In this document: piece by piece, positions 19,772-58,770 of the stretch
How the letters are laid out: each line of letters starts with the position of its first letter
Position numbering within the stretch: the first letter of the stretch is position 1
Source of the DNA: Plasmodiophora brassicae
Taxonomy: Eukaryota
Assembly (NCBI GenBank): GCA_036867785.1
Contig: CP145415.1
Location: 310,001 to 374,000 of the forward strand
Reading direction: 5' to 3'
DNA: 64,000 nucleotides
The notes under the pieces: generated by a model
Told to the model about the DNA's origin: nothing
The model's database searches: none
The model's input: only the letters and a program-made list of their open reading frames with translations
Translations under genes and position numbers: made by a program

Positions 19772-20179
19772 GGTGAAGGTCGGTCAAACTGTCACGACTC
19801 AACGACGACGCGTTGACCGACTGCCGTCGGTCCCCGCTCGCACGGACTTTATTCCGGCGCCGACCTGCTATGTCGACGCCTGACAGTAATTACCGTATTT
19901 TCACATGAACAATCCCCCCCCCCCCCCCCAAATGTTTCTGCGCGCAGTTTTTGCGCCAGTCGAGTACCCCGAGGGGGGATATGTAAGTGTAACTTCCACT
20001 CAATTTCAGGTTTCCAGCCGTAAACTTCGGCATCTTTGTTGTAGATGTTTTCTAGATAACGTGGATGTTTTTTGTTTGGATTTTCCAAGAGACACTGCAA
20101 CGCACGGCGCCTTTGTCCATGCGCTTGGTCGGCAACCATTGCATTTTCGCGCGTTTTTTGAGAGTTGGACAGTCGTACG

Positions 20180-21549
20180 ATGCCGACGTCGGAGGGAGAA
20201 CGGGCGCGGAAGAGCAGGCGATGCGTCTGGACGGTCAAGCAGAAGCGATCCCTAGTGCGCGAGTCGTTCGGGGGTACAGTTAAAGGCACGGCTCGTAAGT
20301 ACGACATTTCGTCGAAACAAATACGGGACTGGCGCCGTAATGTCATGGGATCCGACAACGAAACAATCGAATCGTCTGATGAGGATGGAGCACCGGTGAG
20401 CTTCAAATCCTTCAGTCGCAAGACGTCTGTACGGAAAACCCGATCCCATGGGCGTGCCTCCAGCTTGCCGGTCGCTGTCCAGGAAGCTATCGAAGCGCGA
20501 GTCATCGAGCTTGAGGCGCTGGACGTTAATATCAACGTCCGGTCCATCTACTTGTACGCCAAGGGGTCAGGCCGGTGTCTGTATTATGCCTTCCAGTATT
20601 TGTAACCGAGTTTGCTAGGGCGTTCCCAGAGTTTGCCGCATCTGTGACCAATGAGAAGACGGCAGAACAGAAAATCCGGCGCTTTCTCAACAACAACGGA
20701 AAGCTGGTGACACGGCGGTACACGCGCACCGCTCAGAACACGCGCCACAATGAGGCGGTTGTGCAGGAGTACGTCAAGGTCACAAAGGACCTCATTGACA
20801 TGCTCGGAATCCGTGATCCACGATTGGTGTTGAATATGGATGAGACACCAATGCCCTTCGATATGCCGAAGGCATGGACTCTTGCGAGAAAGGGCAGCAG
20901 AACAGTTCCCTGCAAGACCACCAGCAACGCCAATCGCGCAACTGTGTGCATCACCGTTTCGCTGGCAGGAGACAAGCTGCCTCTTCTGCTCATCTTTAAA
21001 GGTAAGACTGTTTTGTCTCCAATGCATCAATGGATCCTTGAAGTGTAACGTTGTGATGGGTTTGTAGGCAAACCGGGTGCGCGTGTTGAGAAGGAGATGA
21101 AGCGGTTGGACGACCAGATGAACGACGGCCACCGCTGCATTGTCCAGTCTTCATCCTGGAATGATGAAAGGGGCATGCAGGTGTATGCAGACGAAATCTT
21201 TGGTCCCTGGATCGGAAACCGTCCCGTGACATCGCTGATGCTCCTCGACGACTTCGCTGCTCACAAGTGTACCCCTGTGCGAGACGCATTTGCCAGGTAT
21301 GGTGCAGAGGTCGACATCATTCCACCATCGTACACGGGACGTCTCCAGGCGGTGGATGTGGGCATCAACAAGCCGTTCAAGGATAGGATCCGAACTCTCT
21401 GGGACGCGTGGATGATTGAAGAGCTGACGGCGCGACCAGGCACGGCGCCCAAAGTGTCAAGGCCGCTCATTCGCCAATGGGCGGTTCAGGCGTGGCGTGA
21501 GATCCCGCAGGAAATGATCACAGCGACGTGGCGAAAAATCGGACTCTAG
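20180..21549 (+). CDS. pogo DDD transposase (HTH + DDE_1), 3 exons
   Basis: Introns 20566-20618 and 21002-21067 restore the frame; catalytic motifs NMDET, LLDDFAAH, QAVDVGINKPFK. Confidence 0.88.
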
Positions 21550-21556
21550 CAATCCT

Positions 21557-23870: not shown

Positions 23871-23893
23871 TAAACACACCCCTTCAACATTTA

Positions 23894-27460: not shown

Positions 27461-27464
27461 TGTA

Positions 27465-29298: not shown

Positions 29299-32200
29299 TG
29301 AGAAGGACAATAATGAAGTGGATGTATTACGTACGGCGTGTGCGGCGGACGTTACAGTGGCGACGTAGTCGCCGACGGTGTAACGGTTGCCAACGCCGGC
29401 GGGCACGGAGTCGCGGAGTGCGTGACGGCGTTCACGTGCTGCAGGCATGTGCTGCTGGTCGTAGTGGATACGTTGTTCGACACGCCCCCTCCAGCAGCAC
29501 ACGGCCTGGGACTTGTGTCGATGATGCCGGCCAGGAGCAGGTTCGCATGATACGAGGTGCTGAGAGCGGGCTTCGTGAGGTAGTCTGCAGCCATCTCGGC
29601 GGACGGGCACTTGTGGACCACGATCAAACTGGCCTCGACGGCCTCCCGGGTGTAGTGAAACTGCACCTCGATGTCCTTCGTGCGATCATCCATCCGACGA
29701 TAGCCAGACCAGGCCTTCGCGCCTTGATTGTCCTCGTATACGATCGTCGGACTGGAGCGTGCGAAGCCGATTTCGGTCAGGAATGACCGGATCCAGGCCA
29801 GCTGGCGGGTAACAGCACACAGCGACTTGATCTCTGCATGTGTGGACGATAAGCTAACTTTGACTGCGCCCAGGTCTTGGCGACGTGACTGCCAGTGCAC
29901 GGGGCCGCCAGCCAGCAGGATGATGTGGCCGGAGCGCGACCGTCGCGTGTCAGGGTCGGATGCCCAATCAGCGTCGGCGTATGCGATCAGACGATCTTCG
30001 GGCTGGCGTTCGTATCGGATGCCGTGCGTCATGGTGCCGGCGAGGTACTTAAGAACGCGTTGCCCCGCACGCCAATGCTGGATGCCGGGATTCGAGGAGA
30101 ATTGGGCCAGTACATTCGTTATGTACGCGATGTCGGGACGGCATCGATGGGCGAGCCATGTCAGGCAGCCAATAAGTTTGAGGTACGGCTTGGTCGCCAT
30201 TTCGTCACGGTCGAGGTCGCTTTGTGGACTCATTGTCGTTGATAGGTGAACGCCAGGCTGGTGCGGCGTGTCGACCGGATGACAATGCGACATGTTGAAG
30301 TCGCTCAACACCTTCTCGATGTACTCGGCTTGGTCAAGGGTGATGGCGCCGGTGCCAGGTTCGCGTCGGATGCGCATGCCAAGCAGGGTCGACGGTTCAC
30401 CTTGATCGGTGATCTCGGCCATCGTGGAGAGCTTCTCGAGAACGGATTCCGCGAACGGGACGTCATTGTACGCCAGCAGACCGTCGTCGGTGTGCACCGA
30501 CATGATCATGAACTTTCCATCGCGATCGTACCGGAAGACGCAGGGGTCCGCGATGATCGATTCGAATCCGAGTGATAACAGCATCTCCCGAAGCGTCTTG
30601 TACCAACGTTCGGCGCCTTGTTTCGTTCCATAAAGGGCCTTTTGCAGTTGACGAACTCGGTACGGGACGTGATGATCGGTGAAGCCATCCGGCTGACGAA
30701 TGTAAACATCATGGAGCATGTCGGCGTTCAGGTATGCGGCCACCCAGTCGACCTGGCGAAGATGCAGGCCGTGCTGCGCCGCGAGCGCTAGGATAACGAG
30801 GAACGCAGTGGCACGGGCGGTCGGCGCGAACGTATCGTCGAAGTCGATGCCGGGGCGTTGTCGGAAGCCCTGAGCACAGAGTCGGGCGGTGAACTTGCGC
30901 GCGGATGCCACCGTTGCCACTGAGCGAGGACTTCACTCGGAACACCCACTTGGCGCCAACAGCGATCTTACTTTTCGGCAGGTCGATTAGCGGGCCGAAC
31001 GTGTCCTTGGCGTCCAGTGTTGCCATCTGGGTGACGGCGGCGTCCCACCAGTGGCCAGCGAAAGGTGATGAGAGGGCATCGGCCATTGAGTTGGGTACGG
31101 GAATGTCGGTCGCTTTCAGCTTCGACAGGTCGGGTCGTGGTAGACGGGCTGGGTCGATCGGGGCGGATACCTTGGCTCGACATGCCTTGGCAGCTGCGCC
31201 GCGACATGTCGGACGGTTGGACCTGATGGCCTGATCGATCAGACGGCGCTCCTCAACCTGCTGCCAATGCCGGATCAGTCGGCGGGAGCGACGAGGAGGG
31301 CGCTGTGTCGGGAACGTTAGGGTCGGATTCTGGAACCAGGCGTCGACCGTCGAGGACCACCGTGTCGACGAACGATTGGCCGCCTCCGGCGCCTTCCACC
31401 ATTCACCAGGCGGTTGACGACGACGATTCGATCGGCGAGGGCGTGGCACGTCGATGACATTGTGGTCAACGATATCAGCAGCATCGGAATTGTCGTGGAC
31501 GTCGGGGTCGGCAGCTTCGTTGGGAGAGTCGTTGCTGGACGCCGAACCTTCGTAGTCGGGATCATCTTCAGCGTCATCATCATCTTCGTCGGTGGATACG
31601 TCATCAGGAGACGGTGAGCGCGACGGTCGGACGATCTCGGAAGGCGATGACGCAGCGGCAGGTGACGGAGGCTCGGGAGGGGATGCTGCGAGAGAGGATG
31701 CTGACGTCGATGGTAGAGGTGCCATGACGGCGTCGGAAGAGACGGGCGTCGGGACGATCGTGTCAACGTTCGGCGCAGAGCTCGACTCGGGACTGGACGG
31801 TGGCGCTGATGATGAACTAGCAGGGCTGGATCTTCCAAAGCCGAATGTGAACGAGGTCTCCAGGAACTCGGCAGTCGTGCTCTCGAACGTGTCTTCCCGG
31901 TCCACGTCGTAGAACCGCCAAGCCTTCATGCCGGGCGTGAAACCGATAAACACAGCGCGAACACGACGAGGCTCCAACTTGCTCGGCTTCTTCGTGGCTG
32001 GATGCGGTCGCATGGCATATATAGGCATCGCAACCGTAGACACGAAGGGCCGAGATGTTAGGTAGGGCGCGACGAGCAGCCTCGAACGATGTGCGACGCC
32101 CGGGAAGGACTGATCTCGGGTGGATGTTGTACAGTATCGCAGAGTAGGACAGCGACCAGGGCCACGTGGAGTCAGGCATGCGAGAGTGGCACCGGATTGA

Positions 32201-34542
32201 GCTTTCGATACCGCAGAGCGTGTGGTTGACGCTTTCAGCGCGGCCGTTCTGCTCGGGCGTGTACGGGACAGATTTGCGGTGCAGGATGCCGGACTCGTTG
32301 TAGAACAGGACGCACGCCTTGGAGTTGTACTCGCCGCCACCGTCGGTCTGGAACGTCCGGATACCACGTCCTTCCTGGTTGCGAAGACGCGCGTCATAGT
32401 GCTTGATGACGTCGAGCGCCTCCGATTTGCGACGTAGCAGATAGACGGACAGGTACCGAGAGGAATCGTCCAGCATGGTCTGGTAGTACTCAAAGCCGCC
32501 GACACCGACGACAGGCCACCGTCCGGACAGATCGCTATGGACGAGATCGCCAACACGACGCGCGCGCGACGTACTGGGAGGGAATGATGACCGTTTGCCC
32601 TTGGCGAGTAAACATGCAGCGCATGGACATCGATCTTGCGGCCTCGGGATTGGCCCGTCGAACTTCATGCCACGACAACGTTTGTGCAGGATGCGCAGGT
32701 TGCCGTAACCCAGGTGGCCGGTTCGAGCGTGCCAGACAGCTGGAGCTGCGGCGGTGACCTTAGCGACGCGGCATGAGACGCTGGATGCGATCAAGGAGCA
32801 GACTCGGGCAGAGTGAAGTGTGCCGGGCGCGGAGGTTGGAGCGGATAATGGAATCCGGTACAGGTTATCGTGTCCTCGTTGACTGACGGCCACTGGCTGA
32901 CCGACGGGCGCCGTCCAGTTGGCCCCCGAGTAGATCTTCGCGGTATCGCCGTCGAACACGATCTTGTGACCTGATCTGGTGAGCTGGCCAACTGATACTA
33001 GCGCTTGGCCAAGTCGGGGAACGTGCAGCGAATCGATACTCGTCGCCTGGACATCCATGCCGAATGACGTCACGCCTCGACCGGAAGTGGTTGTACGCGA
33101 CAGATCGGCTAGCTCAACTTCCGGTCCGGTGCCTTGGCGATAGCAGCTGAGATGTCGGCGCAGGGGCGTCATCGTCGTGGAACACGCTGAGTCCAGTAGG
33201 CCTACTGAGTTCGCGTACACGTCGATGGCGTGGCGTGCCGACAAAGCACGCATCGGCTCGGGCGCCGGATCGATCGGATGAGCGCCAGACGTTGGATACT
33301 CGTTGGACGTTGGTGAGGATGTATTGCTTTTCGCGTTGCTGTCGCGGTACCAGATGTGTCGTTGCAGCGTGCATTCGCCGTTAGTGTGCTTGGATCCGGG
33401 ATGGAAGACGCAGGACTCGTTGCGTCGTGGTCCACGGGGACGCGTCGATGTGGCGCAACTGGAGCGGTTGGCCGTTTGGAACGCGTCGTGTCGGTCCCGC
33501 ACGTCTTGGACCCTGATCTCCTCGCTTGTCAACGACCCGACGACCTCGGAGACACTGGGCAGCGTGTCCAGAGCACGATTGTGCAGGCCAGCGACGACGG
33601 CGTCGAGATCGGATGATGCGTTGGCCAAGATGAGGACGGCGACCAATGCGTCGGTGAGGGACAGCATCTCGGTCGGTACCGTCGACCGGACGCGATGAGC
33701 CGCTGCTTGAACTCGGGCGGCGTACGTGGCGACCGACTCGCCGGGCATGTGCTGGACCGTGACGAGGTCGCGGACGGCGCGCACGACCGATGCCAGCGAC
33801 GACGGGCTGTACGCCTGGAACAGCACGCGCCAGCACTTGGCAGCCGAGCCTGCCTGAAACAAAGACAATGCGGACGCGATCTTGTGGTCCAGCATGTGGA
33901 CGAGTAGAATCTCGCGCGCGGCTGCCTCGAGAGCTGGGTCGTGTGCCGTACCGGTTGTCGCAGTCGGCGAGCCATCTTCGTTGATCCCGATGACGTCCGC
34001 GTACCCACGATTGCGAAACCAGAGTGCAGCTGTCTGAACCCAGGACGTGAACGAGTCGGGAGTACCGTCGAACTTGGGCATGGGCAGTCGGCCTGCGTCG
34101 CTTCGGCTGTGCGCCTCGGCGATGATCGGCATGGCCGGGGTCGATGGACAGCTGGTCGGACGCGCCAGCTGCTGCTGCAGGACACGGAGACGGTCGATCT
34201 TCTCCTGCCTGGCGATCGTTGCCTCCGCTTCGGCAATTCGGGTGTCGATCTCCTCGAGCGACAGATGACGCAGCGGGTCGTCATCCGTGTTAGGCGTCGC
34301 CTGGCGCTCGGCCATGGCGAGTAGGGGCTCAGCGCCTGCGCCTATACGACTGTTAATCTGAGAAGGACAATAATGAAGTGGATGTATTACGTACGGCGTG
34401 TGCGGCGGACGTTACAGTGGCGACGTAGTCGCCGACGGTGTAACGGTTGCCAACGCCGGCGGGCACGGAGTCGCGGAGTGCGTGACGGCGTTCACGTGCT
34501 GCAGGCATGTGCTGCTGGTCGTAGTGGATACGTTGTTCGACA
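29299..34542 (-). mobile_element. Ty1/Copia element copy A
   Basis: 184-bp LTRs 29299-29482 and 34359-34542; TSD GATGT; PPT GGAGGGGG; gag-PR-IN-RT-RH order. Confidence 0.96.
29352..34315 (-). pseudogene. Copia A polyprotein, two 4-bp frameshifting insertions
   Basis: Colinear with the 1546-aa ORF of copy B but with extra TATA (~32018) and GCGC (~30898). Confidence 0.9.
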
Positions 34543-34543
34543 G

Positions 34544-35706: not shown

Positions 35707-35713
35707 ATTCTGT

Positions 35714-38671: not shown

Positions 38672-39714
38672 TGTCAGGAGACGACACGACGGACGACTAT
38701 TGTCTCCACAACACGGAATTAACAGACTGCCGAAGCCGTCGGTTGCCGTGGACGTTTATTCAAACTGCGCGGCTGCGCGACCCCCGTCGCGGCCGTGCCA
38801 TAACAGTATAGTCCCCTGTCATCGGGCCGGTCTGCGGGGTGGCTTTCGCCACTTCGGCTCCGGCTTGGTTGGGTACCGAGCGTGGAAGATAGCCAACAAT
38901 TCGTTGAGCCCACCTGTGCCGTGTAGTTCTCCTGCGGGTTCCCACGTGCGTTCAGAAGGCGGGTACCCCTCCCAGTCAAATATTCCAGTCGGGAACGGCG
39001 ATATCGAGAATCGAGGACATCGTGAACGATGAAGAGGGGAGCATCGTCATCCGCGAGAAGAATCGGTGGAGGAGGAGGTTGAGTGCGACCAGGGATAAGG
39101 TTGGCGACGTAAGGCTCGAGTTGAGATACATAAAATACATTGTGGATACGGAAATCGGCAGGAAGGTCGAGTTGAAAGGCAACCGGATTGACGAGTTGGC
39201 TGATAGGGAATGGCCCCAAAAATTGGTAGCCGAGCTTCGCGCAGGGTCGCAGAGTTTTCAGCGAGCCGCGGCGTAGCATCACTAAGTCGCCCACCTGAAA
39301 CTTCGGAGACGTTTGCCGCGTCGCGTCGGCGAATCGTTTGGAATCGGCAGAAGCTCGAGTCAATTGGCGGGTCAAGAAGGTGCGAATCCTCTGCAAGGGC
39401 TCAGCTCGCTCGTCGGCAGTCGGATTGGCGCTGGTAGACGGTCGAGGTTGCACGTCCATCACACGTGGATGGTAGCCATAATTCGCGAAAAACGGTGACA
39501 TACCTGTCGCGGTATGGTCTGCATTGTTGTACGAGAATTCAGCTACGGCAAGGAGCGGCTGCCAGTCGTCTTGTAAGTAGTTGGCGTACGCACGGAGATA
39601 CTGTTCCATGACTTGGTTCACCCGCTCGGTTTGGCCATCGGATTCTGGGTGCCGCGAAGAAGACAGGTTGCGTTGCACGCCGAGACGTATGAGAAGTTGC
39701 TTCCAGAACTTAGC
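38672..39714 (-). mobile_element. Chromovirus element E, 3' fragment (integrase C-term, chromodomain, 134-bp 3' LTR 38672-38805)
   Basis: [16 protein letters not shown] module, VHDVLDSRYR; TG..CA LTR with AATAAA. Confidence 0.85.
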
Positions 39715-41898
39715 TGTAACGCCTGAACGGGCGCGTTGGCAAATGGCGCCTCAAATGGCGCCGACGGCAATAAAGTCCGAGACGACCGCGGACCGACGGC
39801 AGTCGGTCAACGCGTGAGTCAGTTGAACCTGACAGTTTGACCGACTACCATGCCGGAGACGCGAGCAACCCGGAAGACGAACGACGACAAGCCCGCCGAG
39901 ACGGTAACGACTGACGGGATCGAGACGACTGACGAGGAGGCGATGGAGAAGAGGATCGCGAAGGCAGTGGCGGACGCGCTGCGCGCCCAGAGGGCCGAAT
40001 TTGAGGAGATGCTCCGACGGGAGCGGGCGGAACGGGCGTTGACTGCTGCGACCGAGGCGATACGCTCCCAACCGCCGGCACATATCGACGACCTAGGAAC
40101 GCGAACGCTGAACGTCACCGTCGATTTGCAGTCATTTTCGGGCAACTTTTCAATCGACGCCATCACCGCCCGGGATTGGCTAGAGATGTTCTCCGACTTG
40201 CTCGACCTGCGTTCGCAGGAACCGTTGCCTCGCACGGCCCGAAACCTGCTCTCGTCCCGCCTGGTCGGCGACGCGCGGGAGCTCTATTTCGCGGCGGCGC
40301 CGATGACGCCGACCGAGTTGACAGCGACACTGACTGGTGCGTTCCCGGAATCGACACCGCGTGCCGCCAAGGAGGCATTCGAGCATTTCCGCCGGACGAC
40401 GCCCAGCATCGACGTGCACGTCGTGCGATTCCGGTGCCTGTACCTACGGGCCCGCCGGCTGAACCCGCGGGAATGCGACTACACCGAGGAGACGCTAGCG
40501 GAATACTTTCGCAATTCCTTGCACGTCGCATTGAGCGAGGAACTCTACAAATGGCAGCTCGTCACCTTGGACGCCATGATCGCGAAGGCCCGGCACCTAG
40601 AGCCCGCATACCCGTTTGTCCCGCCGCAAGTGAACCAGCTGACGGGAGGCCAACAGACGGTACCGCTGACCGACGACGAGCGCGCGCGATGCCTACGCGA
40701 GGGACGCTGTTTTCGATGCAAGGCGCACCACGGTCACCGGTCGCGCGAGTGCCCTCTCCGCGCCCAGCCGGGAAACGGGGAAGGGTGATCGGACCCGGGT
40801 TCGACGATCGCCCATTAGATTCCTCATTCCACGAACCCGACTGCTTAATCCTTACTTCGCTTCATCTCGCCCAACGCCCGTTCGTTCAATCGCCTATCGT
40901 GGACATCTCCATCACATACAGAGGCATCACGTTCACGACGAAGGCCCTCCTGGATTGCGGCGCGACAGGCTCGTTCGTCGACTGGGCTCTGGTGCGACAG
41001 CACGGCATCCCTTGTCGACGCAAACCGGACCCTGTATCCGTCAAGGTCGTTGATGGGCGAGCACTTACGCCGATCTCGCAAGGGACCGTTCCGCCCTCCT
41101 CTGTGGTCAATGGGGAATTCGCCGATCAACACCTCGTCCTCAACGTCATCCATTCGCCGAATCACCCCATTATCTTGGGCATGCCGTGGCTGGACTTCCA
41201 CAATCCCGATGTGAACTGGCGGTTGAGATCGACGACGCGACGCTACGCCTGCCGCTGCGGCAACGCCGCCCCGAGTCCCGATCACAGCGAGCCGATCTCG
41301 AGAGCGACGGGCGCCAACATGGTCGCCACCGCGACGGAGACTAGTTCACCGGGAGACGAGCATGGGCCTGAGCCGGAACCTGTGCCTGACGACCCTATAC
41401 CACGAGACGACGACAGTCCTATGCCGCGATCGCCACCACTAGCGCCGGCGGACGCCACGCCGCGGCATCCAGCGTTAGAGACAGCTGCTGTTAGAGACGT
41501 GCTACGTGGCGCCCCTACCGACCGACCGGACTGGACTACGCACCATGCCGTTCACGTCACGTCCTTGCTCCTGGGGCCGCACTGGAGTCGCGTCGCGCCT
41601 GCCGATTGTTCCCCCTTGCAACACGCGCTGCCGCTGACCATTCACAACTTGTCGCCGCCCCGCGAAGTGCCGACGAGCCAGGCTCCGAACTTAATGACGT
41701 CCGCACAGATGAAGGACAGAACAAACCGAGATGAGCGACGACCGGCGTTCACGAGCACACCTGCCTTGTGGAGGGCGCGTCGCAGGACCTCGCCTCCTTG
41801 TCACGATCAGGCAAGCTGATGCAACGAACGCTTTGACGGACTGGCGAAGTCCGTCGCGGGGTTCGGGATTTATTCAGTTATCACAGAATAGTCCTCTT

Positions 41899-44800
41899 CT
41901 AGCGATTGGGTCTCCGCCGGTTTCGGGAGCGAGGGCCAGGTTTATCGGGATATCGAGCATGAAATTCAGCAATCGCTTGGTCCAGGCCTCCTGTCCCATG
42001 GAGATTGCCCGCGGGTTCCCAGGTGCGATCGGACGGGGAGTATCCTTCCCAATCTATGAGATATTGCAACCGCCCCGACCGGTATCGGGAATCCAAGATC
42101 GACTTAACGATGAACAGGGGCTGGTCGTCATCTTCCAATACAATGGGCGGCGGCGGTGGCTGTTGGCGATGTGGAAGGACATTAGGCGTATACGGTTCCA
42201 GCTGTGACACATGGAAGACGTTATGTAGGCGCGAGGTAGGAGGCAGCTTCACTTCGTATGCGACGGGGTTAACTGTGCGAACCACTTGGAAGGGTCCCAG
42301 CAGACGGTCATCCAGTTTCCCGCACGGGCGGCCAGTCGATAAGGTTCCACGCCTGAGCATGACGAGATCGCCCACCTGCAGTGGTGGTGGTTCGCGGCGA
42401 CGGCGATCCGCAGAGCGCTTCATAGCGTCGACCGCCCGTTGCAGTTGGCCCTTCAAGTAGCGGCGAACCTTCTCAAGGAATTCGGCACGCTCATCGGCGG
42501 CTGGGTTACAGACTTGGCCATTCCTGGGTCGAGGCTCCGTCACCCTTGGATGAAACCCGTAGTTGGCGAAAAACGGCGACATGCCGGTGGCCGAATGGTC
42601 GGCGTTGTTGTACGCGAACTCGGCCATAGGCAGAAGTTGCAGCCAGTCGTCCTGCATGTAGCTAACATAGCAGCGTAAGTATTGTTCGAGGATCTGGTTC
42701 ACGCGTTCCGTCTGGCCGTCGGATTCCGGGTGCCGGGATGAAGACAAGTTCCGTTGGATACCAAGACGGTCCAGTAAGTGCTTCCAGAAGGCCGACACGA
42801 ACTGGGGCCCCCGGTCGGAGACGATGTCGTCCGGTAGGCCATGCAGGCGGAATATCTGCTGCAAAAACAGGTCGGACAGCTCGACCGCTGTGAGGGTCTC
42901 CTTGCACGGAATGAAGTGGGCCATTTTCGAAAACCGGTCGACGACGACGAGGACCGAATCGTAGCCGTCGGAAACTGGAAGCTTGACAATTAGATCCATT
43001 GAGATCGATGACCACAGAGAACTCGGCAAGGGAAGAGGCAGCAGGAGCCCGGACGGTTTGTGGCGCGGAGACTTGCTTCTCTGACAAATGTCGCAGGATG
43101 AGACGTACAGTTTGACGAAGGCCCTCATGCCAGGCCACCAAAATTCACGCTGGACAAGCCCAAGCGTTTTGCGGATACCAAAGTGACCAGAGGCCCTATT
43201 ATCGTGGAGTTGCCGGAGGATCTCGATCTTGCATTCGTCTCCGGAGACGACCAAGGAGCGTCCTTTGTACAGGAGGCCGTCTCTCAGGCAATACTTCCTA
43301 CCTTGAGGTCGGTCGAGCAGACCGGCAATCTTGGCGACGAACGGATCACTCGCTTGGTGTCGTCGGATACGGTCTAGGAGAGGCTCGGACGGAGCCGCCT
43401 CCGCGTGGACGGTGAACGCGTCCACCACGGGGGACGGAACTAGGCGATGAAGCGGGAGCAGTTGGAGAGATTGTTGCAGGATGCCTTCTTCAGACGCCGT
43501 CGGGACGTACTCCGGGCGGCGCGTCAAGGCGTCAGGTTTACCGTGCAAGCGGCCCGGTCGGTGCTGAATCATGAAGTCGAAGCCGCTAAGCAGTTGGGAC
43601 CATCGGATTTGGCGCGGATTAAGCTTGTGGGTCGTCATGAAGTACTTGAGGTTGCGGTGGTCGCTGTGCACAAGTGTCTGATGTTCATCCGAATCCAGGA
43701 ACTGGCGCCATTTCTCGAAGGACGCAACAACGGCCAGGAGCTCTTTGTCGTAGACCGCATATCGGATCTCAGCGGGGTCCAGTTTCCTCGAAAAGAACGC
43801 CAGAGGGTGTAAGTCCCCGTCACGGCCCCGTTGTGAGAGGACCATGGCAATGGCGAAGTCGGAGGCATCCGTTTCAATCTCGCACGGCACGCTAGGATCG
43901 AAGTGGGCGAGGACCGGAGCGCGTGTGAACGCGCTCTTCAGAGTTGCGAAGGCGGTCGAAGCAGTCTCGTTCCAGATAAATTCGGTTTCCCCGCGAGTAA
44001 GGTTCGTCAAGGGAAGTGCGATCTCCGCGAAATGCGGGATGAACTTTCGGTAGAAGTTGGCGAACCCAAGGAAGACTTGCAGCCCGTGGAGGTCACGCGG
44101 CGGGGCCCACGCGAGTATTGTGTCTACTCGGCTGGGATCCAACCGGAGGCCGTCCTTGGACACTAAGTAGCCGAGGAATTCGACCTCCGGTGCGTCGAAC
44201 AAGCACTTAGACAGTTTGGCCGTCAGGCGCGCGGAGCGTAGACGTTCGAGCACCAAACGCACGTGCTGTTCATGTTCCTCAGCATTCTTGGAGAAAATCA
44301 AGATGTCGTCAAGGTAAACAACAACGAAACGGTCAATGAAGTCGCTGAATGTCTCGTTCATGAAGGCTTGAAAGGATGCCGGGGCGTTGGCAAGCCCGAA
44401 GGGCATAACCAGGTACTCGAACAATCCGTACGGTGTCCGGAATGCTGTCTTCCATTCGTCACCTTCGCGAATGCGGATCTGGTTGTACGCACTTCGAAGG
44501 TCGATCTTGGATAAGACCGTTGCTTGACCGAGTGTCGAAAGCAGCTGGTCGATGAGCGGAAGTGGGTAACGGTTCTTCACGGTGACCGAGTTCAGGCCTC
44601 GGTAATCAACGCAAAGCCGTAACGAACCATCCTTCTTCTTCGCGAAAAGGATCGGCGCGCCGGCAGATGAACGCGACGGCCGTATGAAGTTCGACTGGAG
44701 GTTATCTTCCAAATACTTCTTGAGGGCTACCTGTTCGCGGGGAGACAAGCCGTAGAGGCGACAGAATGGAGGCTCCGTCCCCGGTTTCAGGTCGATCGAG

Positions 44801-46233
44801 CAGTCAGAGGCGCGGTGCGGCGGTAAGGATGTGGCGGTGGCCTCGTCGAACACGTCGGCAAAATCCTGGTATTTTTCAGGTATCTTCGTCTGCTCTGACT
44901 CGGTGTCCTCGGTCCACGTATAATGGATGAGGTAGCACTGAGCGTCGTCCATGAGTGCGTCCAGGAACGGTTCGGCGTCGACTAGATGGATGGGAACGTT
45001 GGCCGCCAGAGGTTCTTCAGTGCTTGGTGCCGGCAAGGGAACGTGGTCGATCCGCGTCCCGTCGCCTTGATTAGAATCCGTGGGCCGTACGTCGCACGAC
45101 GACTGTGGAGCATCTCCGGCTAGAACGTCAGGGCCGGCGTTCGGCGGGGCGATCGGACAGGCGTCGTCAGATGACGTGTTTAGATAAGCACGAAGGTCGA
45201 CGCGTGCGGGTTCGCGGCACATAGTGACGAAGGCAAGCGCCCAAGCGGCCGCCACGATGGATGAGCACATGAACAGGCTGACCACCTGGCGTGCCCTGGA
45301 ACCGTCGTCCAAACGACAATCTGGTAGACGTCGACCGGCTCCCCGCCTGTGTCGCTGCTCCCGCGCCGGCGACGTTAGCCAGCCTGTCTGGTCGGGGAAC
45401 GATTCGAGCTCGAGGCAGTTCGCAGGGGTGTTACCGGTGTCAGCCGTTTCCAGGTCGCCAGCGGCTTTGTCCTGAGTCTCAATTGCGGCTGTCGCCAAGG
45501 ACTCTGCCACCCGGCGTTCATCGTTGGCCGCAGGCGGCAATGGTGTCACGATCAGGTCTTGTGCGGAAGTTGGATCTGGATGTTGTTTTGTGTTAACAGG
45601 CGCCTGGGCGATGAGCGGAGCTGCACTAGAGGCGTCCAGGGCCGGATAACGGCAGTCGTCGTGTGGCGCAGCCACGCTTGCCTCGGTTGTCTCAGCTTCT
45701 GCATGGCCAGGATCCGCCACAGTTGTCGGCGTTGACGTTGACGGCGAGGGGGGGCACTGGCGCGGCGAGACGAGCCGCCGGCGCCAATCCACATCTGGAT
45801 TAGTCTGGGCTAGCCAGGGCAGACCCAGGATGACGGGATAGGTCGGCGAATTGATCAGATTCAGGACGATCTCACACGAGAACTGGGCGTCCACCGTCGT
45901 TCTCAACGGCTGAGTCTCCTGTGATATAGGTGCGAGCTGGCGGCCGTCGACAACGCGGACAGGTATCGGACGATGCGTCGGGCGGGTAGGCAGAACGTGG
46001 AGCCGCGCGAAGGACCAGTCGATAAAGTTGCTAGTCGCGCCACAGTCGATCAAGGCCGTTGTCGAGATACTTTCGGACCCGGTGTATATGGTCATCGGAA
46101 GTACGAGATGCGGGACAGAGCGGGCGTGGAGAAACATGAGATCGCTTATTTGAACAGGGTCGGGTTCGGATGACAATGCAGAGTTTACTGGGTGGCCGGC
46201 GAACCCGTTGGCGGTCACCCTTGGACATTTCCC
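41899..46233 (-). CDS. pol: Pol of element C (PR-RT-RH-IN-chromodomain), expressed by -1 frameshift
   Basis: Uninterrupted reading frame; [42 protein letters not shown]. Confidence 0.93.
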
Positions 46234-47063
46234 GGTGCAACCGGCGGCCGTTTCGGGCAATCCGCGATCCGGTGGCCATCTTCTTTGCAGTAGAAGCAGA
46301 GGCCGTCCTTGCGGGCACGCTCACGGGCATCGGCGGCGACAACCTTCGGAACGGGGTAGCGCGGGCAGAGGTGTTTCGCCTTTTTGACCATCTCGTCGAA
46401 GTCGGTGATCATGTCCTCGAACAGTTTTTCCGACAAGGCAGTATGCAGCGACTTCCGGAACTTCGACGCGCGCCGGGCCGAACTCATCTTGAAGGTTGCA
46501 TCCGCGCGCTGAAGCGCTTGATACAAATTGTTGAACATCAACACATGCTCTTCGACAGGTTCGGTCTGGGTGAGGTTGTCGAAGCACTCCTCCAGCTGTT
46601 CGAACGTCGGCACCGGAAACCATTTTGACATCGCGTAGGACAGGTCGGCCATCGTGGCGTCGTCCGGCAGCCCGAAATAGACTTCCAACGCCGGGCCTTC
46701 CAGCGATCTAAGAAGGGCGCTGTGCGCCGCCGGCGGAAGGCGGGTCGTCGATGACGGGAGCTGCAGCGTCCTTGACAGACACTTCAGAAAGTCGCGGGAG
46801 TTCGTGGAACTGTCGCGAATACGCCCGGTAAAGCGGGGCAGGTGGATCTGGTGGTCGACGATGTGTCGGGATGTCGGCGACGGCTCGCTCGGCGGCATCT
46901 TGTCGGGCAGCGAGCGATTTATCGCTGTCCCAACGGCATCTTCGACCCGGTCGGCCACTACGGACTGCATAGCTTTCAGCTGGTGCAGCATGTCGCTGAC
47001 AGTGAGCGTGAGGTCCCGCACTTGATCTGCCAGTGCGGCGATCTGGTCCTCGCTCGTTGTCAT
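46215..47063 (-). CDS. gag: Gag of element C
   Basis: [14 protein letters not shown] knuckle; ends PGNVQG*. Confidence 0.9.
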
Positions 47064-47102
47064 CGCGAACACACCGGTAGACGGACAGGAAACGGGACGG
47101 CA

Positions 47103-47220
47103 GGAACGGAGCGGGCGGAACGGAGCGGGCGGAACGGAGCGGGCGGAACGGAGCGGGCGGAACGGAGCGGGCGGAACGGAGCGGGCGGAACGGAGCGGGC
47201 GGAACGGGGCGGGCGGGACG
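47103..47220. repeat. 14-bp tandem repeat (GGAACGGAGCGGGC)n in the 5' UTR of element C
   Basis: About 8 consecutive units. Confidence 0.9.
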
Positions 47221-49524
47221 GCGGTGACCGTTGGTTAGTCCGTCAAAATGTCACGATCAGGCAAGCTGATGCAACGAACGCTTTGACGGACTGGCGAAGT
47301 CCGTCGCGGGGTTCGGGATTTATTCAGTTATCACACTCCTCGCCGCCGAACCAGCTCTGATGCGTCCAGGGCCTCAGCCTTAGCCCAACCCTGTGAGCCG
47401 CGGCCGTCGACGGACCGCTGCACTCTGCAGGCGCTGGTGCTCTGGGGCCTTCTCAGGGAGGCAGACCCCCGACTTGACATGAAGCGGGCCTTCCTGGAGG
47501 TCTCCCGCATGGCGTCCGCCCTGCGCGCGCACGACGCATCCTTTGACGAATGGCTGGATCTGAGCCCATGCGACCGGACGGTCGACCCTCCGGGCGGAGG
47601 CGACACTTCGCAGCATCCTCTACCGGCCACCACCGACGCCACTGAGGAGATGGCCACGGCACCCCCCGACATGACTGTTGACGATTTCCACATTCGCACG
47701 GTGGCGCGGACGAGTTCTTCAACGACGCATACGAGGATGGCACGAATTGTTACATGATCCATACGACATGGATGACGCCTGGTTCCACGCAAGACACGCA
47801 GCTTCCCGCCAAGTATGCAGACTTCGCCGACGTGTTCGATGAAGCGGCCGCGTCTCGACTACCGGAACATCGGGCCTCCGATTGTGCCATCGACTTGCAC
47901 ACCGGGAAGGAACCGCCGTTCGGCCGCCTTTATGGATTATCGCCACGTGAGCAGGAAGCTATGAAGGTGTACCTGACGACCAACCTCGAGTCCGGCTTCA
48001 TTCGCCCGTCGAAATCCCCGACTGGCGCCCCCGTTCTGTTCGCTAAGAAGAAGGATGGATCGTTGCGTTTTTGCGTCGACTATCGCGGGCTGAACGCCGT
48101 AGCGATCAAAAACCGGTATCCCGTTCCTCTCGTCGACCAGAGCCTTGCCCAACTAAGCTCGGCCAAGATATTCACCAAGATCGATCTCCGCTCGGCCTAC
48201 CATCAAGTCCGGATCCGGGAAGGCGACGAATGGAAAACCGCGTTTCGCACACCGTTTGGACTCTTCGAGTACTTGGTGATGCCGTTCGGGCTGGCCAATG
48301 GACCGGCCGCATTCCAAGGGTTCATGAACGCCATGTTCCGGGACTACTTGGAAGTATTCGTCCTCGTGTACCTCGACGACATCTTGATATTTTCTCGCAA
48401 TCCGGAGGACCATGAACTCCGCGAGGAGGAACGCTTTGGGAAGCTCAGCAAGTGCGCCTTCGACGCTTCCGAGGTCGAGTTCCTCGGCTACGTCGTTTCT
48501 CACAACGGCGTCCGAATAGACCAGGCCCGAATCGACACGATTCTAGCTTGGGAGCCGCCCGGCGATGCGCACGCTGTCCGAGTTTTCCTGGGGTTTGCCA
48601 ACTTCTACCGCAAGTTCATCGCGCATTATGGAGAGATTGTCTTGCCACTCACCGACCTCACGAAGGACAATGTGGACTTTCACTGGGGAGCTGAAGAAGA
48701 TGCCGCATTCCGCACCTTGAAAGCCGCGTTCACGTCTCCTCCGATCCTGACGCGCTTCAATCCCGACCGGCCGTGCGAAGTCGAGACGGACGCATCCGAC
48801 TTCGCCCTCGCCATGGTACTGTCGCAGCGCGACGACGACGGCGAACTGCACCCGATTGCGTTCTACTCGAGGAAGTTGACCCCGGAAGATATTAACTACA
48901 AGATACACGATAAGGAGCTACTACCGATCGTGGAAGGCTTCCAGAAATGGCGCCAGTTCCTGGACTCGGCGCAGCACCAGACGCTCGTCTACAGCGACCA
49001 CAGGAACCTGCAATGGTTCCTCAGCAGCCAAAAGTTGTCGAGACGACAAGTTCGCTGGGCGCAACTCTTGGGCAATTCGACTTCCGCATCGCCCATCGTC
49101 CGGGACGCCTTCACGGCAAACCGGACGCATTGACGCGTCGACCAGAGTACCGGCCAACGAAGGCGGAGGCCGACGCAGCCCAGCAAGCAACCCAAGTATT
49201 GCCGGCAGCTCACTTCATCACCACTGATTCCCCCGTTACCAACCACGTTCTTAACTTGATTGGCGAACCGCGCAGCACCGAGAGCTTGTGGGCCCGCATC
49301 CGAACTAACCAAGCAACGGACCCCTTTGTTCAGAAGGTACTCGCACGCTTAGCCGCCCCGACACCACGGAACCGTCGCTTCCGCCAGGCCGACGGCATCC
49401 TCTACCGGGACGACCGCGTGGTGGTCTCCGGCGACGATTGCAAGTTGGAAATCCTGAAATCGCTGCACGACGCGCAGACAGCTGGACACTTCGGCCTCGG
49501 AAAGACGCTGCACCTCGTGCTCCG

Positions 49525-51948
49525 TGTCACGACTGAGTCGTGTTGGCGACTCAGCCGGCACCAAATTGGGCTCCTTCGTAAGCGCACTAGGTACAATAAA
49601 CGTCCACGGCGCGGACCGACCTCAGTCGGTCAATCCGTGTGGTTGACTCATCGTGTTCGGTCGTCACATTTTGACCGACTGACCTTCTGTCGTCGTCTTG
49701 TCTCGACTCGTATCGTATTGTGCCGTATCGTATCGTATTGTGCCGTATCGTACCGTGCCGTACCGTTTCTATCGTTGGTATTGTATTGCATTCATGGCAG
49801 GAGGCGATGGGTCGATTCCGTCATTGGCGGACGACGTCCCATCGTCCGCGAATCCGGATGTTGCGGGTGCGTCGGATTCTGCTCTCGGTCCCCTGTCGCA
49901 TCTGCACTTCGCGCGGGGTGTTCTGCCACTGGCGAATCATCTCCCTGCACGACCGCTCACCCCGCCTTCGCTCACTAGTACCGCTGCCGATTGGCCCGAC
50001 GACTCTCTGTCCTCTTCGGACCCTCACTCCCCGCCAGCCTTATCGTCCATACACGTTTCTGCCGCCTCGCGGTCTCTGCAGGACCCCGGCGGCACGCCTC
50101 GGCATGACCGTGTCTCCTCGACGTCGCAGCATATTGGCGCTTCGTCCGTTGGGGCTCGGGTGCCGGCGCCACGGGTGTCTCCGGGCCCACCCTTAACGTC
50201 TATTGTTGTCCAGTCACAAGACATTCCGCGTTTTTCGGGAAGCGATGGTCTGTCGACGACGCGTTGGTTGACTGCGTTCTCTCGGATCACCCAGACGCCG
50301 TTAACGTCTACAAGTCCTCTATTCAGCGATGTGCAATGTGTCTTAACGACAGCCTTGCAAGGTCAGGCCCTTGAGACTTACCTCGACTTGCCTGCGGACG
50401 CGTCTATGGCGGACGTAGCGTCCGTCCTGCTCCATGTCTTCCCGGGACCTTCGTTCAAGCAGATTGAAGCGAAGTTTGACAACCTGAAGCAGACTGCAGG
50501 TGTCGCTCACCACGCACTGGCATTCCAACGCTTGTACAAGCACCTTCAACGACTTGACCCATTGTACAGACTCAATCCGGCCCGCTTGGCGGAAAAGTTC
50601 CGCCTCTCGTTGAACCCTGCGCTCTCCGAAGCGCTGTTCTTCTACAACTTCAGAGACTACGACAAAGTTGTCGAGATGGCGGTTCATCTTGAGTCGAAAT
50701 ACCCAATCGCCGCCATCAACGCTGGCGGTGATGCAAGGGCACAACCCCTGGCTTGCCACTATTGTCGCGAAGTTGGACATTTTATTGCGTCCTGCCCGAA
50801 GATGCCACCGTGCCCGCACTGTCATAAGGTTGGCCACCGCTCATCGCTGTGTCCCGAGCGGTCCGGCAACCCTCTCCACGTCACTGATCTGTTCCTTATG
50901 ACGTCTCCCTCAATACCGCATCTATTGGTATCGGTACGCCTCGTTATCGGCTCACGCCGTGTCAACACTATCGCCCTGTTAGACTGTGGTGCGACTTCCA
51001 ACTTCATCGACTGGTCGTTCTGTCGTCACCATGAAATACCGGTTCGCTCTAAACGCGTGCCATTCCTGTTCGCGTCATCGACGGGCGACACCTGTCTCCA
51101 GTAACTCAGGAAACCGTCCCGCTACGTGCTACAGTCGACGGATGTTTCGACAGCGATGTCGTCCTGAACATGATGCACTCGCCTCAACACCCTGTCATTC
51201 TTGGGCTGCCTTGGTTGGCGGATACAAACCCAGATATTGATTGGCGTCAGCGCCGCCTACAGCGCCGCGGAGATACCCTCGTGGGGATCCGTACAGGAGA
51301 CGTCCATGAGTCTGGGTCCTTCGTCTCTTCGGCGGGACCATTTGCAACAGTAAAGCGCGACGATAGTCTCTCAGCTGGGGTCTCACCTCCTGCACGAAGC
51401 GTTCCTGCGCCTGCGTGTGCCATCCCTTCAGCTGAATCACTCGAAACGTTGCCGCTTACATCCGTGTTTGTCGACGGCAAGCTGGCTTCCGTAGCTAATG
51501 ACGACCACCCGATGTGCCACATTGCCACTGCTGCCGTCGACGACAGGCCGAGTCCTTCCGCTTTCGATTATGGCTCCGAGTCCACGCCCCTTATGTCCTC
51601 CTTCCGGAACTGGGGCCCCCTTCGGCGAAGGGTGAAACGGTCTCTCCCGCCGCCCCCGCCGCCTCCCTCCAATGGTGGCTTCCGAGACGGCCACAGCCTC
51701 AACCTTCTGATGTTCGCAACCTTTGTCGCCCTGACCTGGATCCTAGTTGGGTGGCCGTATTTTCCAATAGCACAGCTGTGTACGAGCGCCTTTGCGGAGC
51801 CCCCGCCCTTGAATGCGCCCGCCGAGTCCTTATTTGCACCTTTTGCTACGTTAGAGGATGACCAGGCCTCATCAACCTCGATCGCGTTTCTCAACCACGA
51901 TCTCATGTTCCTGGACGCCGCCGTACGTGCGTTTACCCACAAGCTACA
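49525..51948 (+). mobile_element. Gypsy element D, 5' fragment (144-bp LTR 49525-49668, in-frame gag-PR from 49794)
   Basis: Two CCHC knuckles, [19 protein letters not shown]; frameshift near 51060; ends at the Copia B junction. Confidence 0.85.
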
Positions 51949-58735: not shown

Positions 58736-58770
58736 GTTTATTCGCAATACAAAACTCCGCCTATTGCCGC

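What the first reader, a model, noticed from the sequence alone, without database searches (positions are those of the whole stretch)
19779..49682. Short-LTR Gypsy family with a covarying self-priming (tRNA-independent) PBS
Seen: none of the four 5' LTRs is followed by a tRNA-3'-end PBS (TGG...). Instead the PBS is complementary to a motif inside the same LTR. A: GTCGGTCAA / TTGACCGAC (LTR motif ~19813-19822, PBS 19779-19787). B: AGTCGGTCAA 39801-39810 / 39837-39846. C: AGTCCGTCAAA / TTTGACGGACT (47282-47292, 47237-47247), a compensatory change. D: TCAGTCGGTCAA 49622-49633 / 49671-49682. In all five LTRs (E included) the motif begins at a CAGT 23-26 nt after AATAAA. In A-D a U3 copy (GACCGAC or GACGGACT) forms a hairpin with the motif. 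Established: S. pombe Tf1 primes reverse transcription with the first 11 nt of its own mRNA. Inference: this is a self-priming family in a probably non-fungal protist. The U3 hairpin, present only at the RNA 3' end, could mask the 3' R copy so it does not compete for the PBS. Prediction: the missing 5' end of element E has a PBS like TTAACAGACT.
Basis: partly seen in the sequence, partly recalled or inferred. Interest (0 to 1): 0.82.

Follow-up and report, generated by a model that had tools for sequence, protein, structure and literature searches.

The report
Self-priming retrotransposons in the clubroot parasite
A family of very compact jumping genes in the clubroot parasite Plasmodiophora brassicae appears to start copying itself with the first bases of its own RNA instead of a host tRNA, as the yeast element Tf1 does, and carries an extra, apparently undescribed hairpin that could tell the two ends of that RNA apart.

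Summary
The window is Plasmodiophora brassicae (Rhizaria) and holds a nest of chromodomain Ty3/gypsy elements with 87-134 nt LTRs (8 LTR copies, 6 types). Each of the four 5' LTRs is followed, 1-2 nt after its terminal CA, by 9-12 nt complementary to a motif inside the same LTR; none has a TGG-type tRNA site. LTR shuffles reach these matches in 37, 8, 0 and 1 of 20000 tries. The motif starts at CAGT, with AATAAA 29-32 nt upstream. In metagenomic relatives a canonical TATA box sits at that position. The same layout occurs in 31 of 60 relatives against 10 of 60 on the control strand. This is Tf1-type self-priming, a known mechanism, not reported for Rhizaria in the papers I could search. The motif also pairs with a PBS-like copy just upstream in U3, so the hairpin straddles the inferred start site. 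Five nearest metagenomic relatives have such a hairpin with different sequences (three strong, two weak). Its role, masking the 3' copy of the primer, is inference. Not tested: the transcription start, host tRNAs, full-length E copies. A fixed-register covariation count on the six LTR types was inconclusive.

The parts
14212..19885 (-). Element A, a complete chromovirus. Gag 18839-19783; PR-RT-RH 15651-19031; IN-chromodomain 14322-15650, following an in-frame stop at 15651-15653.
   Evidence: LTRs are 96/96 identical, with target duplication GTAAT.
19790..19885 (-). A 5' LTR (96 nt). AATAAA 19848-19853; U3 arm, loop and R arm of the hairpin 19815-19832; primer motif 19813-19822.
19779..19787 (-). 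A PBS TTGACCGAC, 2 nt after the LTR end. The gag ATG is at 19771.
39715..39834 (+). B 5' LTR (120 nt). AATAAA 39769-39774; hairpin 39791-39808; primer motif 39801-39810.
   Evidence: The right end is confirmed by other copies.
39837..39846 (+). B PBS TTGACCGACT. The gag ATG is at 39850.
41799..47335 (-). Element C, complete, inserted in B. Gag 46215-47234; pol 41899-46320 in the -1 frame, with slippery GGGAAAT at 46233. LTRs 41799-41885 and 47249-47335.
   Evidence: One contig in run X9 joins 41798 to 47416 without C.
47282..47292 (-). C primer motif AGTCCGTCAAA, inside hairpin 47285-47305. AATAAA is at 47319-47324.
47237..47247 (-). C PBS TTTGACGGACT, carrying the compensatory change relative to A, B and D.
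49541..49668 (+). D 5' LTR (128 nt). AATAAA 49595-49600; hairpin 49614-49631; primer motif 49622-49633.
49671..49682 (+). D PBS TTGACCGACTGA
38672..38805 (-). E 3' LTR (134 nt), motif AGTCTGTTAA at 38719-38728. The IN/chromodomain remnant 38852-39717 is cut off by B.
57814..57930 (+). F, an orphan LTR of the same family (117 nt). Motif AGTCGGCTAA at 57885-57894; the hairpin has one G-U pair. No recognisable element body beside it.

Best explanation
The elements are chromodomain Ty3/gypsy retrotransposons of Plasmodiophora brassicae that prime minus-strand DNA synthesis with the 5' end of their own RNA, as Tf1/Tf2 of fission yeast do.

Inferred steps:
1. Transcription starts at the A of CAGT, about 30 nt downstream of an AATAAA that occupies the TATA-box position.
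2. The first 10-11 nt of the RNA fold back onto the PBS, which lies 2 nt beyond U5, with a small U5 stem-loop between them.
3. The element's RNase H cuts after about nt 10-11, and the freed 3' OH is extended.
4. Plus-strand strong-stop DNA copies the primer, so each cycle rewrites the PBS to match the R motif. This explains why C changed both together.

The same motif also pairs with a PBS-like copy just upstream in U3. That arm is transcribed only at the RNA's 3' end. My preferred reading, at roughly 35-40%, is that the hairpin hides the 3' copy of the primer so that only the 5' copy engages a PBS.

Shown: the sequences, their positions, the predicted folds and their recurrence in relatives.
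Inferred: the start site, the cleavage, the priming and the role of the hairpin.
For: 1. Pfam finds RVT_1, RT_RNaseH, Integrase_H2C2, rve, SH3_Tf2-1 and Chromo in pol, and zf-CCHC in gag.
2. All four 5' LTRs are followed, 1-2 nt after CA, by 9-12 nt complementary to their own LTR. Shuffles reach this in 37, 8, 0 and 1 of 20000. None has a TGG site.
3. Folding the RNA from CAGT to the PBS pairs the 5' end with the PBS and leaves an internal U5 hairpin in 4 of 4 elements (z -2.9, -4.2, -4.6, -2.4).
4. C carries G>C in the motif with the matching change in the PBS. A host-encoded primer would not follow an element's own mutation.
5. Relatives: 78 metagenomic loci at 36-58% pol identity were fetched.
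   - Of the 60 with at least 600 nt of 5' region, 31 have ACA, 1-3 nt, then at least 9 nt complementary to a motif up to 700 nt upstream. The reverse-complement control gives 10 of 60.
   - Of the 38 sense hits, 25 are at offset 2, against 7 of 16 control hits.
   - 11 of the 25 offset-2 hits have a TATA-like box starting 26-36 nt upstream of the motif. Background is 456 of 119805 positions, and control hits give 0 of 7. These 11 belong to about 6-7 families, so they are not independent.
   - The P. brassicae AATAAA starts 29-32 nt upstream of the A of CAGT, which is inside that window.
6. Many relatives' motifs begin AGT or AG, for example AGTCTGAAAT and AGTTCGAATAT, like AGTCGGTCAA here.
7. 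C looks young and multi-copy.
   - It has identical LTRs and open gag and pol.
   - In four public runs its depth is 26-216 against 0-24 in most flanking bins, with one letter different over 5310 nt.
   - Its LTR ends run into other flanks, and one contig lacks the insertion.
8. Hairpin:
   - 7-8 perfect bp in A-D.
   - The extended stem-loop has z -3.5, -3.1, -4.5, -2.6 and -3.0 in A, B, C, D and F.
   - C changed the U3 arm as well.
   - All five members of the two metagenomic clades nearest by path length have a U3-arm/motif hairpin built from quite different sequences. It is strong in L012, L004 and L002 (z -5.5, -7.1, -5.3) and weak in L001 and L005 (z +0.15, -1.1).
9. Mechanism as published for Tf1: the first 11 bases pair with the PBS, and RNase H cuts between bases 11 and 12 (PMC7175516, passages read; PMC4600332, passages read).
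Against: - No transcription start or poly(A) site was mapped. The runs are held as contigs of unrecorded library type and gave no start or end table.
- R plus U5 would be only 33-57 nt, so R must be very short.
- The one poly(A) end seen in the window (53305, run X9) lies 21 nt after an ATAAA. If the LTR's AATAAA acted the same way, cleavage would fall upstream of the motif and leave no R.
- Inside the window the covariation is a single event.
- With fixed registers, 76.5% of cells pair. Shuffles reach that in 173 of 500, and the count of pairs changed on both sides in 128 of 500. The arms of C and E are out of register there.
- E's hairpin is imperfect, and those of L001 and L005 are weak.
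- 16 of 21 self-priming-type relatives have no U3 arm of more than 6 nt, so the hairpin is not needed for self-priming as such.
- The 10 of 60 control-strand hits show that the scan has a real false-positive rate.
- Host tRNAs and tRNA fragments could not be screened.
Confidence: 0.75

Rival explanations
1. A host RNA (an internal tRNA fragment or another small RNA) is the primer. The LTR motif merely resembles it.
For: CAGTCGGT resembles, from my recollection only, the D-arm of some tRNAs. Half-tRNA primers are known for some copia lineages (PMC6317226, passages read). The host tRNA set could not be checked.
Against: The PBS of C changed together with C's own LTR motif. Relatives carry many different PBS sequences, each matching its own LTR. 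The resemblance does not extend over the 3' half of the PBS match, and the variants in C, E and F break it. No tRNA gene lies in the window.
Confidence: 0.05
2. The motif/PBS pairing is a leader RNA structure with another job (packaging, dimerisation, or control of gag translation, whose ATG follows the PBS within a few nt in A and B). Priming happens in some other way.
For: The gag ATG lies 15-18 nt after the LTR end in A and B, so the stem would sit right at the start codon.
Against: The paired segment sits exactly where a PBS must be: CA, 2 nt, then the PBS. This holds in 4 of 4 elements here and in 25 offset-2 hits among relatives. No alternative PBS is visible. In C and D the ATG is 185 and 125 nt away.
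Confidence: 0.07
3. The U3/R hairpin serves 3'-end formation rather than masking. AATAAA would double as the poly(A) signal, and the stem-loop would bring it close to a cleavage site just past the stem, giving an R of about 20 nt.
For: In C the extended stem spans LTR positions 21-61. In two runs from two studies a 5310-nt contig stops at 41823, which is LTR position 63; a third run stops at position 51, a weak hint only. One AT-rich motif acting as both promoter and poly(A) signal is described for HML retroviruses and proposed for Retrofit/Tnt1 (PMC3601003, passages read).
Against: The relatives with the strongest hairpins (L012, L004, L002) have a true TATA box there and, where the PBS is on the contig (L012, L004), 150-165 nt of R plus U5. 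They do not need such juxtaposition. Contig ends cannot show RNA ends.
Confidence: 0.2
4. The hairpin is a switch on 5' ends. RNAs that start upstream (read-in or alternative starts) include the U3 arm, which sequesters the primer. Only RNAs starting at CAGT could then self-prime.
For: In S. pombe, choice of start site decides whether Tf2 RNA carries the self-primer (PMC5341516, passages read). These elements lie nested in one another, so read-in transcription is likely.
Against: No upstream starts have been observed. An RNA with a 5' extension would already be a poor substrate without any hairpin.
Confidence: 0.15

Closest known systems
Tf1/Tf2 of Schizosaccharomyces pombe and Tj1 of S. japonicus (self-primed Ty3/gypsy chromoviruses)
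   Same: - Chromodomain integrase.
- No tRNA-type PBS.
- PBS complementary to about 11 nt at the start of R in the same LTR.
- A stem-loop in U5 between the primer and the PBS.
(literature passages.)
   Different: - LTRs of 87-134 nt with R plus U5 of 33-57 nt.
- AATAAA in the TATA position.
- A U3 arm that pairs with the primer motif across the inferred start site. I found no description of such an arm in the passages I read; the original Tf1 papers were not held.
- A rhizarian host.
- Priming is not shown experimentally here.
Tf1/sushi group of vertebrates and fungi, and the Tcn1 clade of Cryptococcus, mosses and lycophytes (self-priming predicted from sequence)
   Same: The inference is of the same kind, resting on LTR/PBS complementarity (PMC6317226; PMC2864245). 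The best named protein hits are amphibian, ascomycete, basidiomycete, amoebozoan and green-algal chromoviruses at 39-56% identity, with seed plants at 38-45%.
   Different: The P. brassicae rows form their own clade (support 100) on a long stem, inside an unresolved radiation. No labelled Tf1, sushi or Tcn1 sequence was available, so clade membership is untested.
Unnamed metagenomic chromoviruses L001, L002, L004, L005 and L012
   Same: They are the nearest relatives by path length in the tree and share the tripartite layout: TATA-position box, U3 arm, short loop, primer motif, then ACA-GT-PBS. PBS matches of 11-12 nt are present in L001, L004 and L012.
   Different: They have canonical TATA boxes, LTRs of roughly 270-450 nt, and unrelated arm sequences. 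The hairpin is weak in L001 and L005. The hosts are unknown.
Retroviruses and retrotransposons in which one AT-rich box serves as both promoter and poly(A) signal (HML; Retrofit/Tnt1)
   Same: There is a single AT-rich box in a short LTR and a very short R (PMC3601003).
   Different: Those elements are tRNA-primed. A dual role for the box here is only a possibility.

Membership tests
Chromovirus (Ty3/gypsy with chromodomain integrase) | Domain order PR-RT-RNase H-IN, with a chromodomain at the C-terminus of integrase | tested here: met
   In C pol: RVP_2 83-184, RVT_1 561-718, RT_RNaseH 808-914, Integrase_H2C2 1031-1084, rve 1106-1198, SH3_Tf2-1 1317-1377, Chromo 1403-1456 (E 7.6e-12). A shows the same order.
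Chromovirus (Ty3/gypsy with chromodomain integrase) | LTRs ending TG...CA, a short target duplication, and a polypurine tract before the 3' LTR | tested here: met
   TG...CA occurs in all six LTR types. A and C have 5-bp duplications. Purine runs (AGAAGAGGA, ACAGGGGA) lie 7-8 nt before the 3' LTRs of C and E; the run is weaker in A.
Tf1-type self-primed retrotransposons | No PBS complementary to a tRNA 3' end (TGG...) | tested here: met
   0 of 4 elements have TGG in the first 10 nt after the LTR.
Tf1-type self-primed retrotransposons | A PBS just after U5, complementary to a sequence inside the same LTR | tested here: met
   9-12 nt in 4 of 4 elements. Shuffles reach this in 37, 8, 0 and 1 of 20000.
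Tf1-type self-primed retrotransposons | The complementary sequence is the first ~11 nt of the element's RNA (the start of R) | tested here: inconclusive
   This is indirect only. CAGT lies with AATAAA starting 29-32 nt upstream. Relatives have TATA boxes at the same spacing in 11 of 25 offset-2 hits. No RNA 5' ends could be read.
Tf1-type self-primed retrotransposons | RNase H cleavage of the RNA duplex after about nt 11, and extension of that primer | not testable with these tools
   This needs biochemistry or mapping of strong-stop DNA.
Tf1-type self-primed retrotransposons | A U5-IR-like stem-loop between the primer and the PBS | tested here: met
   predicted in 4 of 4 leaders. This is prediction only.
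Tf1/sushi clade (phylogenetic sense) | RT-IN groups with Tf1, sushi-ichi, Maggy or Tcn1 reference sequences | not tested
   No labelled reference sequence was available. The FastTree of 51 rows places the P. brassicae clade in an unresolved radiation together with self-priming-type metagenomic lineages and one Ustilago protein.

The most novel reading that the evidence does not exclude
A clade of self-priming chromoviruses (the P. brassicae family and its nearest metagenomic relatives) carries a three-way base-pairing device. The first ~10 nt of R pair with the PBS at the 5' end of the RNA, and with a PBS-like arm in U3 at the 3' end. This would give the element a built-in way to tell its two identical R copies apart, so that only the 5' copy becomes a primer. 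In P. brassicae the device is packed into an LTR of 87 nt, in which one AATAAA may serve as both TATA box and poly(A) signal.
Probability: 0.35. Interest if true: 0.65.

Novelty: new variant of a known kind. Interest (0 to 1): 0.5.

Why it matters
Self-priming was shown for Tf1 in 1995. Since then it has been inferred for fungi, vertebrates, mosses/lycophytes and one plant copia lineage. For amoebozoan Skipper elements it was looked for and not found. A rhizarian case, together with the many metagenomic relatives that show the same layout, indicates the mechanism is widespread in one large chromovirus radiation.

The start-site-straddling hairpin is a concrete, testable answer to a question that self-priming raises: the primer sequence is also present at the RNA's 3' end, so what stops it from engaging the PBS?

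There are two practical points.
- LTRs of 87-134 nt with no tRNA PBS are easily missed or misclassified by LTR finders that require about 100 nt or more and a tRNA match. That statement rests on my recollection of the tools' default settings.
- Gypsy and copia blocks are reported to shape structural variation between P. brassicae isolates (bioRxiv 10.64898/2026.10.14.759018, passages read).

Tried and rejected
- Whole genome of the window: none is held. A genome-wide census of the family, a host tRNA screen and a search for full-length E or F copies were therefore impossible.
- RNA evidence:
  - No RNA holder was listed for element C. All 24 runs are of guessed or unknown kind and are held as contigs.
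  - Laying four of them gave no table of starts or ends.
  - Some contigs carry GT..AG joints and one carries a poly(A) tail, so RNA is present in at least some runs. I do not use contig ends as evidence for the start site.
- Formal covariation of the hairpin: MAFFT/RNAalifold on the six LTR cores put the arms of C and E out of register. A covariance-model realignment did not fix this. The counts were not significant: 76.5% of cells paired, reached by 173 of 500 shuffles.
- The covariance model found no hairpin in 13 relatives' loci (one hit at E 0.59 in L077). This is expected, because their arm sequences differ.
- First tree attempt: MAFFT timed out on full-length proteins. It was redone on blastp-trimmed RT-IN spans.
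  - My length filter dropped 13 of 64 rows.
  - Twelve were named proteins: axolotl, Ranitomeya, three Berkeleyomyces, Microbotryum, two Closterium, two Lolium and two Planoprotostelium.
- LTR pairs in relatives: only 27 of 78 loci gave a repeat pair, and many of those were contig-end overlaps with unknown LTR ends. I therefore switched to the ACA + offset scan with a reverse-strand control.
- L074 has an AATAAA, 26 nt, then an AGTCTGTT layout like E, but its PBS region pairs at only 6 of 8 positions. It was not counted as self-priming.
- Region 57302-59560 around F: no similarity to gag, pol or copia.
- Earlier findings of this scan: three look-ups returned nothing.
- Papers: the original Tf1 papers and the Levin review were not held. 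A search for the 'shortest LTR' gave nothing usable, so I make no claim of a record.
- Chance as an explanation was rejected on the shuffles.


Full report
**What is in the window**

GC content is 50-70%. The stretch 14-64 kb is a nest of LTR retrotransposons.
- A (14212-19885, minus strand) is a complete chromovirus.
- E (38672-39717, minus) is an integrase/chromodomain remnant with its 3' LTR.
- B starts at 39715 (plus strand) and cuts off E.
- C (41799-47335, minus) is a complete chromovirus inserted in B.
- B resumes at about 47700, as RT, RNase H and part of IN.
- D starts at 49541 (plus strand) and cuts off B.
- D is in turn interrupted by a copia element (51956-57301, minus).
- Two further copia copies lie at 29306-34665 and from 60947 onward.
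- A sixth short LTR, F (57814-57930), stands alone.

A covariance model of the LTR core finds exactly eight copies: A twice, B, C twice, D, E and F.

Pfam gives the full chromovirus domain set, including Chromo and SH3_Tf2-1. Gag and pol are linked by a -1 frame overlap, with the same slippery heptamer GGGAAAT shortly before the gag stop in A and C.

**Whose genome it is**

C's pol is 100% identical to an NCBI protein labelled Plasmodiophora brassicae. A's RT-IN is 100% identical over 699 columns to another (P0007).

**The observation**

In element orientation, each 5' LTR ends in ...ACA. After 2 nt (1 nt in C if its extra A-T pair is counted), there follow 9 (A), 10 (B), 11 (C) and 12 (D) nt that are exactly complementary to a motif inside the same LTR.
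- Shuffled LTRs reach these lengths in 37, 8, 0 and 1 of 20000 trials.
- About 1000 control windows per element inside gag gave at most 8-10 nt.
- None of the four has a TGG site.
- The motif is (C)AGTCGGTCAA in A, B and D, and AGTCCGTCAAA in C. C's PBS carries the complementary change.
- AATAAA starts 29-32 nt upstream of the A of CAGT in all six LTR types.
- Just upstream of the motif lies a copy of the PBS core (GACCGAC; GACGGACT in C). It forms a 7-8 bp hairpin with the motif around a 4-5 nt loop.
- With neighbouring bases the stem-loop grows to about 30-40 nt and is more stable than shuffles in A, B, C, D and F (z -2.6 to -4.5). It is not in E (z -0.99).

**Reading it as self-priming**

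RNA from CAGT to just past the PBS folds in all four elements with its 5' end on the PBS and a small hairpin in U5 between them (z -2.4 to -4.6). This is the published Tf1 layout. [quoted passage not shown]

The position is also what retroelement geometry demands: CA, two bases, then the PBS. In such a system plus-strand strong-stop DNA copies the primer. The PBS of each new copy is therefore rewritten from R. On established retroviral logic, this is a sufficient explanation for the paired change in C, and it argues against a host primer.

**Relatives**

An alignment of C, A and database homologues retrieved 78 metagenomic loci with 36-58% pol identity. Only 27 gave an LTR pair, and many of those were contig-end overlaps. 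I therefore scanned the 5' regions of the 60 loci that had enough sequence. The pattern sought was ACA, 1-3 nt, then at least 9 nt complementary to something up to 700 nt upstream.
- 31 of 60 loci had a hit, against 10 of 60 on the reverse-complement control.
- Of the 38 sense hits, 25 lay at offset 2, usually as ACA-GT-PBS. Of the 16 control hits, 7 lay at offset 2.
- 11 of the 25 offset-2 hits had a TATA-like box starting 26-36 nt upstream of the motif. Background was 0.4% of positions, and control hits gave 0 of 7. These hits fall into about 6-7 families, so the nominal p-value overstates independence.

This has two consequences. The P. brassicae AATAAA sits exactly where relatives have TATAAATA or TATATAA. 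That is the best available evidence that the motif's first base is the transcription start. Second, self-priming signatures are spread across the whole radiation to which the P. brassicae clade belongs. That tree was made with FastTree and has 51 rows. My length filter dropped 13 of 64 rows, 12 of them named proteins. The P. brassicae clade itself has support 100, but the backbone is unresolved.

**The hairpin in relatives**

Among 21 relatives with a self-priming-type hit, 16 show no U3 complement to the motif of more than 6 nt. L004 does (9 nt). Reading the sequences of the two clades nearest to P. brassicae shows a U3-arm/loop/motif hairpin straddling the inferred start in all five members, built from unrelated sequences.
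- L012: an 11-13 bp stem, motif ATTCCGGTTCAA, PBS its exact 12-nt complement.
- L004 and L002: 11-12 bp stems, motif AAGGTGAACAA.
- L001 and L005: only 5-6 bp.

L012, L004 and L002 are far more stable than shuffles (z -5.5, -7.1, -5.3). L001 and L005 are not.

The three-way relation (U3 arm resembles the PBS, and both are complementary to the start of R) is therefore a lineage feature rather than an accident of one family. Its strength varies. A fixed-register covariation count on the six P. brassicae types was not significant.

**What the hairpin does**

The U3 arm is transcribed only at the 3' end of the RNA. At the 5' end the motif is therefore free for the PBS, while at the 3' end it is held in a local hairpin.

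I find it the most economical reading because it applies equally to the short-LTR family and to relatives with long LTRs. A PBS that engaged the 3' copy would, after cleavage, tie cDNA synthesis to the wrong end of the RNA.

A 3'-end-formation role fits the P. brassicae geometry: AATAAA, 3 nt, the stem-loop, then a possible end at LTR position 63 of C. Contigs of two runs from two studies stop there, which is a weak hint at most. This role is not needed in the relatives that have true TATA boxes and long R-U5.

A switch against RNAs that start upstream is also possible (compare Tf2 start-site choice, PMC5341516).

None of these could be tested here.

**Activity**
- C has identical LTRs, open reading frames and a 5-bp target duplication.
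- In four public runs its body has depth 26-216, against 0-24 in most flanking bins.
- It differs by one letter over 5310 nt.
- Its LTR ends run into other flanks.
- One contig joins B across the insertion site without C.
- A has identical LTRs but an in-frame stop between RNase H and IN.

**Literature**

Self-priming is established for Tf1. It has been inferred for Tj1, the Tf1/sushi group of fungi and vertebrates, Tcn1 of Cryptococcus and of mosses/lycophytes, and the TAR copia lineage. It was sought and not found in amoebozoan Skipper.

Searches for Plasmodiophora with LTR/Gypsy terms, Plasmodiophora with 'primer binding site', and Rhizaria with chromovirus found no description of priming in this organism or supergroup. 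These searches cover open-access papers and bioRxiv only. The original Tf1 papers were not available to me, so I cannot exclude that a U3 arm was noted there.

**Verdict**

The mechanism is most likely Tf1-type self-priming (about 0.75). That makes it a new host group and a compact variant of a known kind, with a conserved start-site-straddling hairpin as the new and testable part.

Noticed in passing
window 52242-53613, + strand (antisense to the copia element at 51956-57301): All four laid runs hold a contig at depth 29-164 that skips 52458-52522 (65 nt) and 52831-52893 (63 nt), with GT..AG ends on the + strand. Run X9 has a poly(A) loose end at 53305, 21 nt after an ATAAA. This looks like a spliced, polyadenylated RNA antisense to copia pol. 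Further + strand GT..AG joints lie at 38871>38926, 48114>48167 and 55089>55152.
   Followed up: partly
window 56976-57030: Run X4 has a contig (depth 185) that skips 53 nt with CT..AC ends. This would be a GT..AG intron on the minus strand, in the copia element's 5' leader or gag start.
   Followed up: no
window 15651-15653: Element A has identical LTRs but a single in-frame stop between RNase H and integrase. NCBI protein P0007, identical to A's RT-IN region, is labelled '(mitochondrion)', which looks like a mislabel.
   Followed up: partly
window 46233 and 18857 (minus strand): The same slippery heptamer GGGAAAT lies shortly before the gag stop in C and A. It fits a -1 ribosomal frameshift into pol.
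   Followed up: partly
window 39715-40438: Runs X1 and X4 hold a roughly 1.1-1.4 kb contig. It joins the U5-PBS-gag start of a B-type element (39813-40438) through 380 other letters to a B-type LTR (39715-39832). It may be a short internally deleted, non-autonomous derivative.
   Followed up: no
window 57814-57930: F is an orphan LTR of the family and was not in the finding. Its motif is AGTCGGCTAA and its hairpin has a G-U pair. A second small hairpin (GGCTAA...TTAGCC) lies in its U5. No element body lies beside it.
   Followed up: yes
window 35418-35699: A tandem array with a 33-nt period (six overlapping 108-nt copies, 60-97% alike) lies between the copia element and E.
   Followed up: no
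window 19914-19929: A run of 16 C lies 29 nt outside A's 5' LTR.
   Followed up: no
L074:1-130 and 4859-4973: A metagenomic chromovirus that groups with a frog protein has an LTR ending AATAAA, 26 nt, AGTCTGTTCGTTCCGTGACA. This is very like E's layout, with R plus U5 of only 20 nt. The bases after its LTR pair with that motif at only 6 of 8 positions.
   Followed up: partly
window 59563-60786, minus strand: There is a weak (22% identity) integrase-like match to a different gypsy lineage. A possible LTR-like AATAAA...CAGTC stretch lies at 58916-58960.
   Followed up: no
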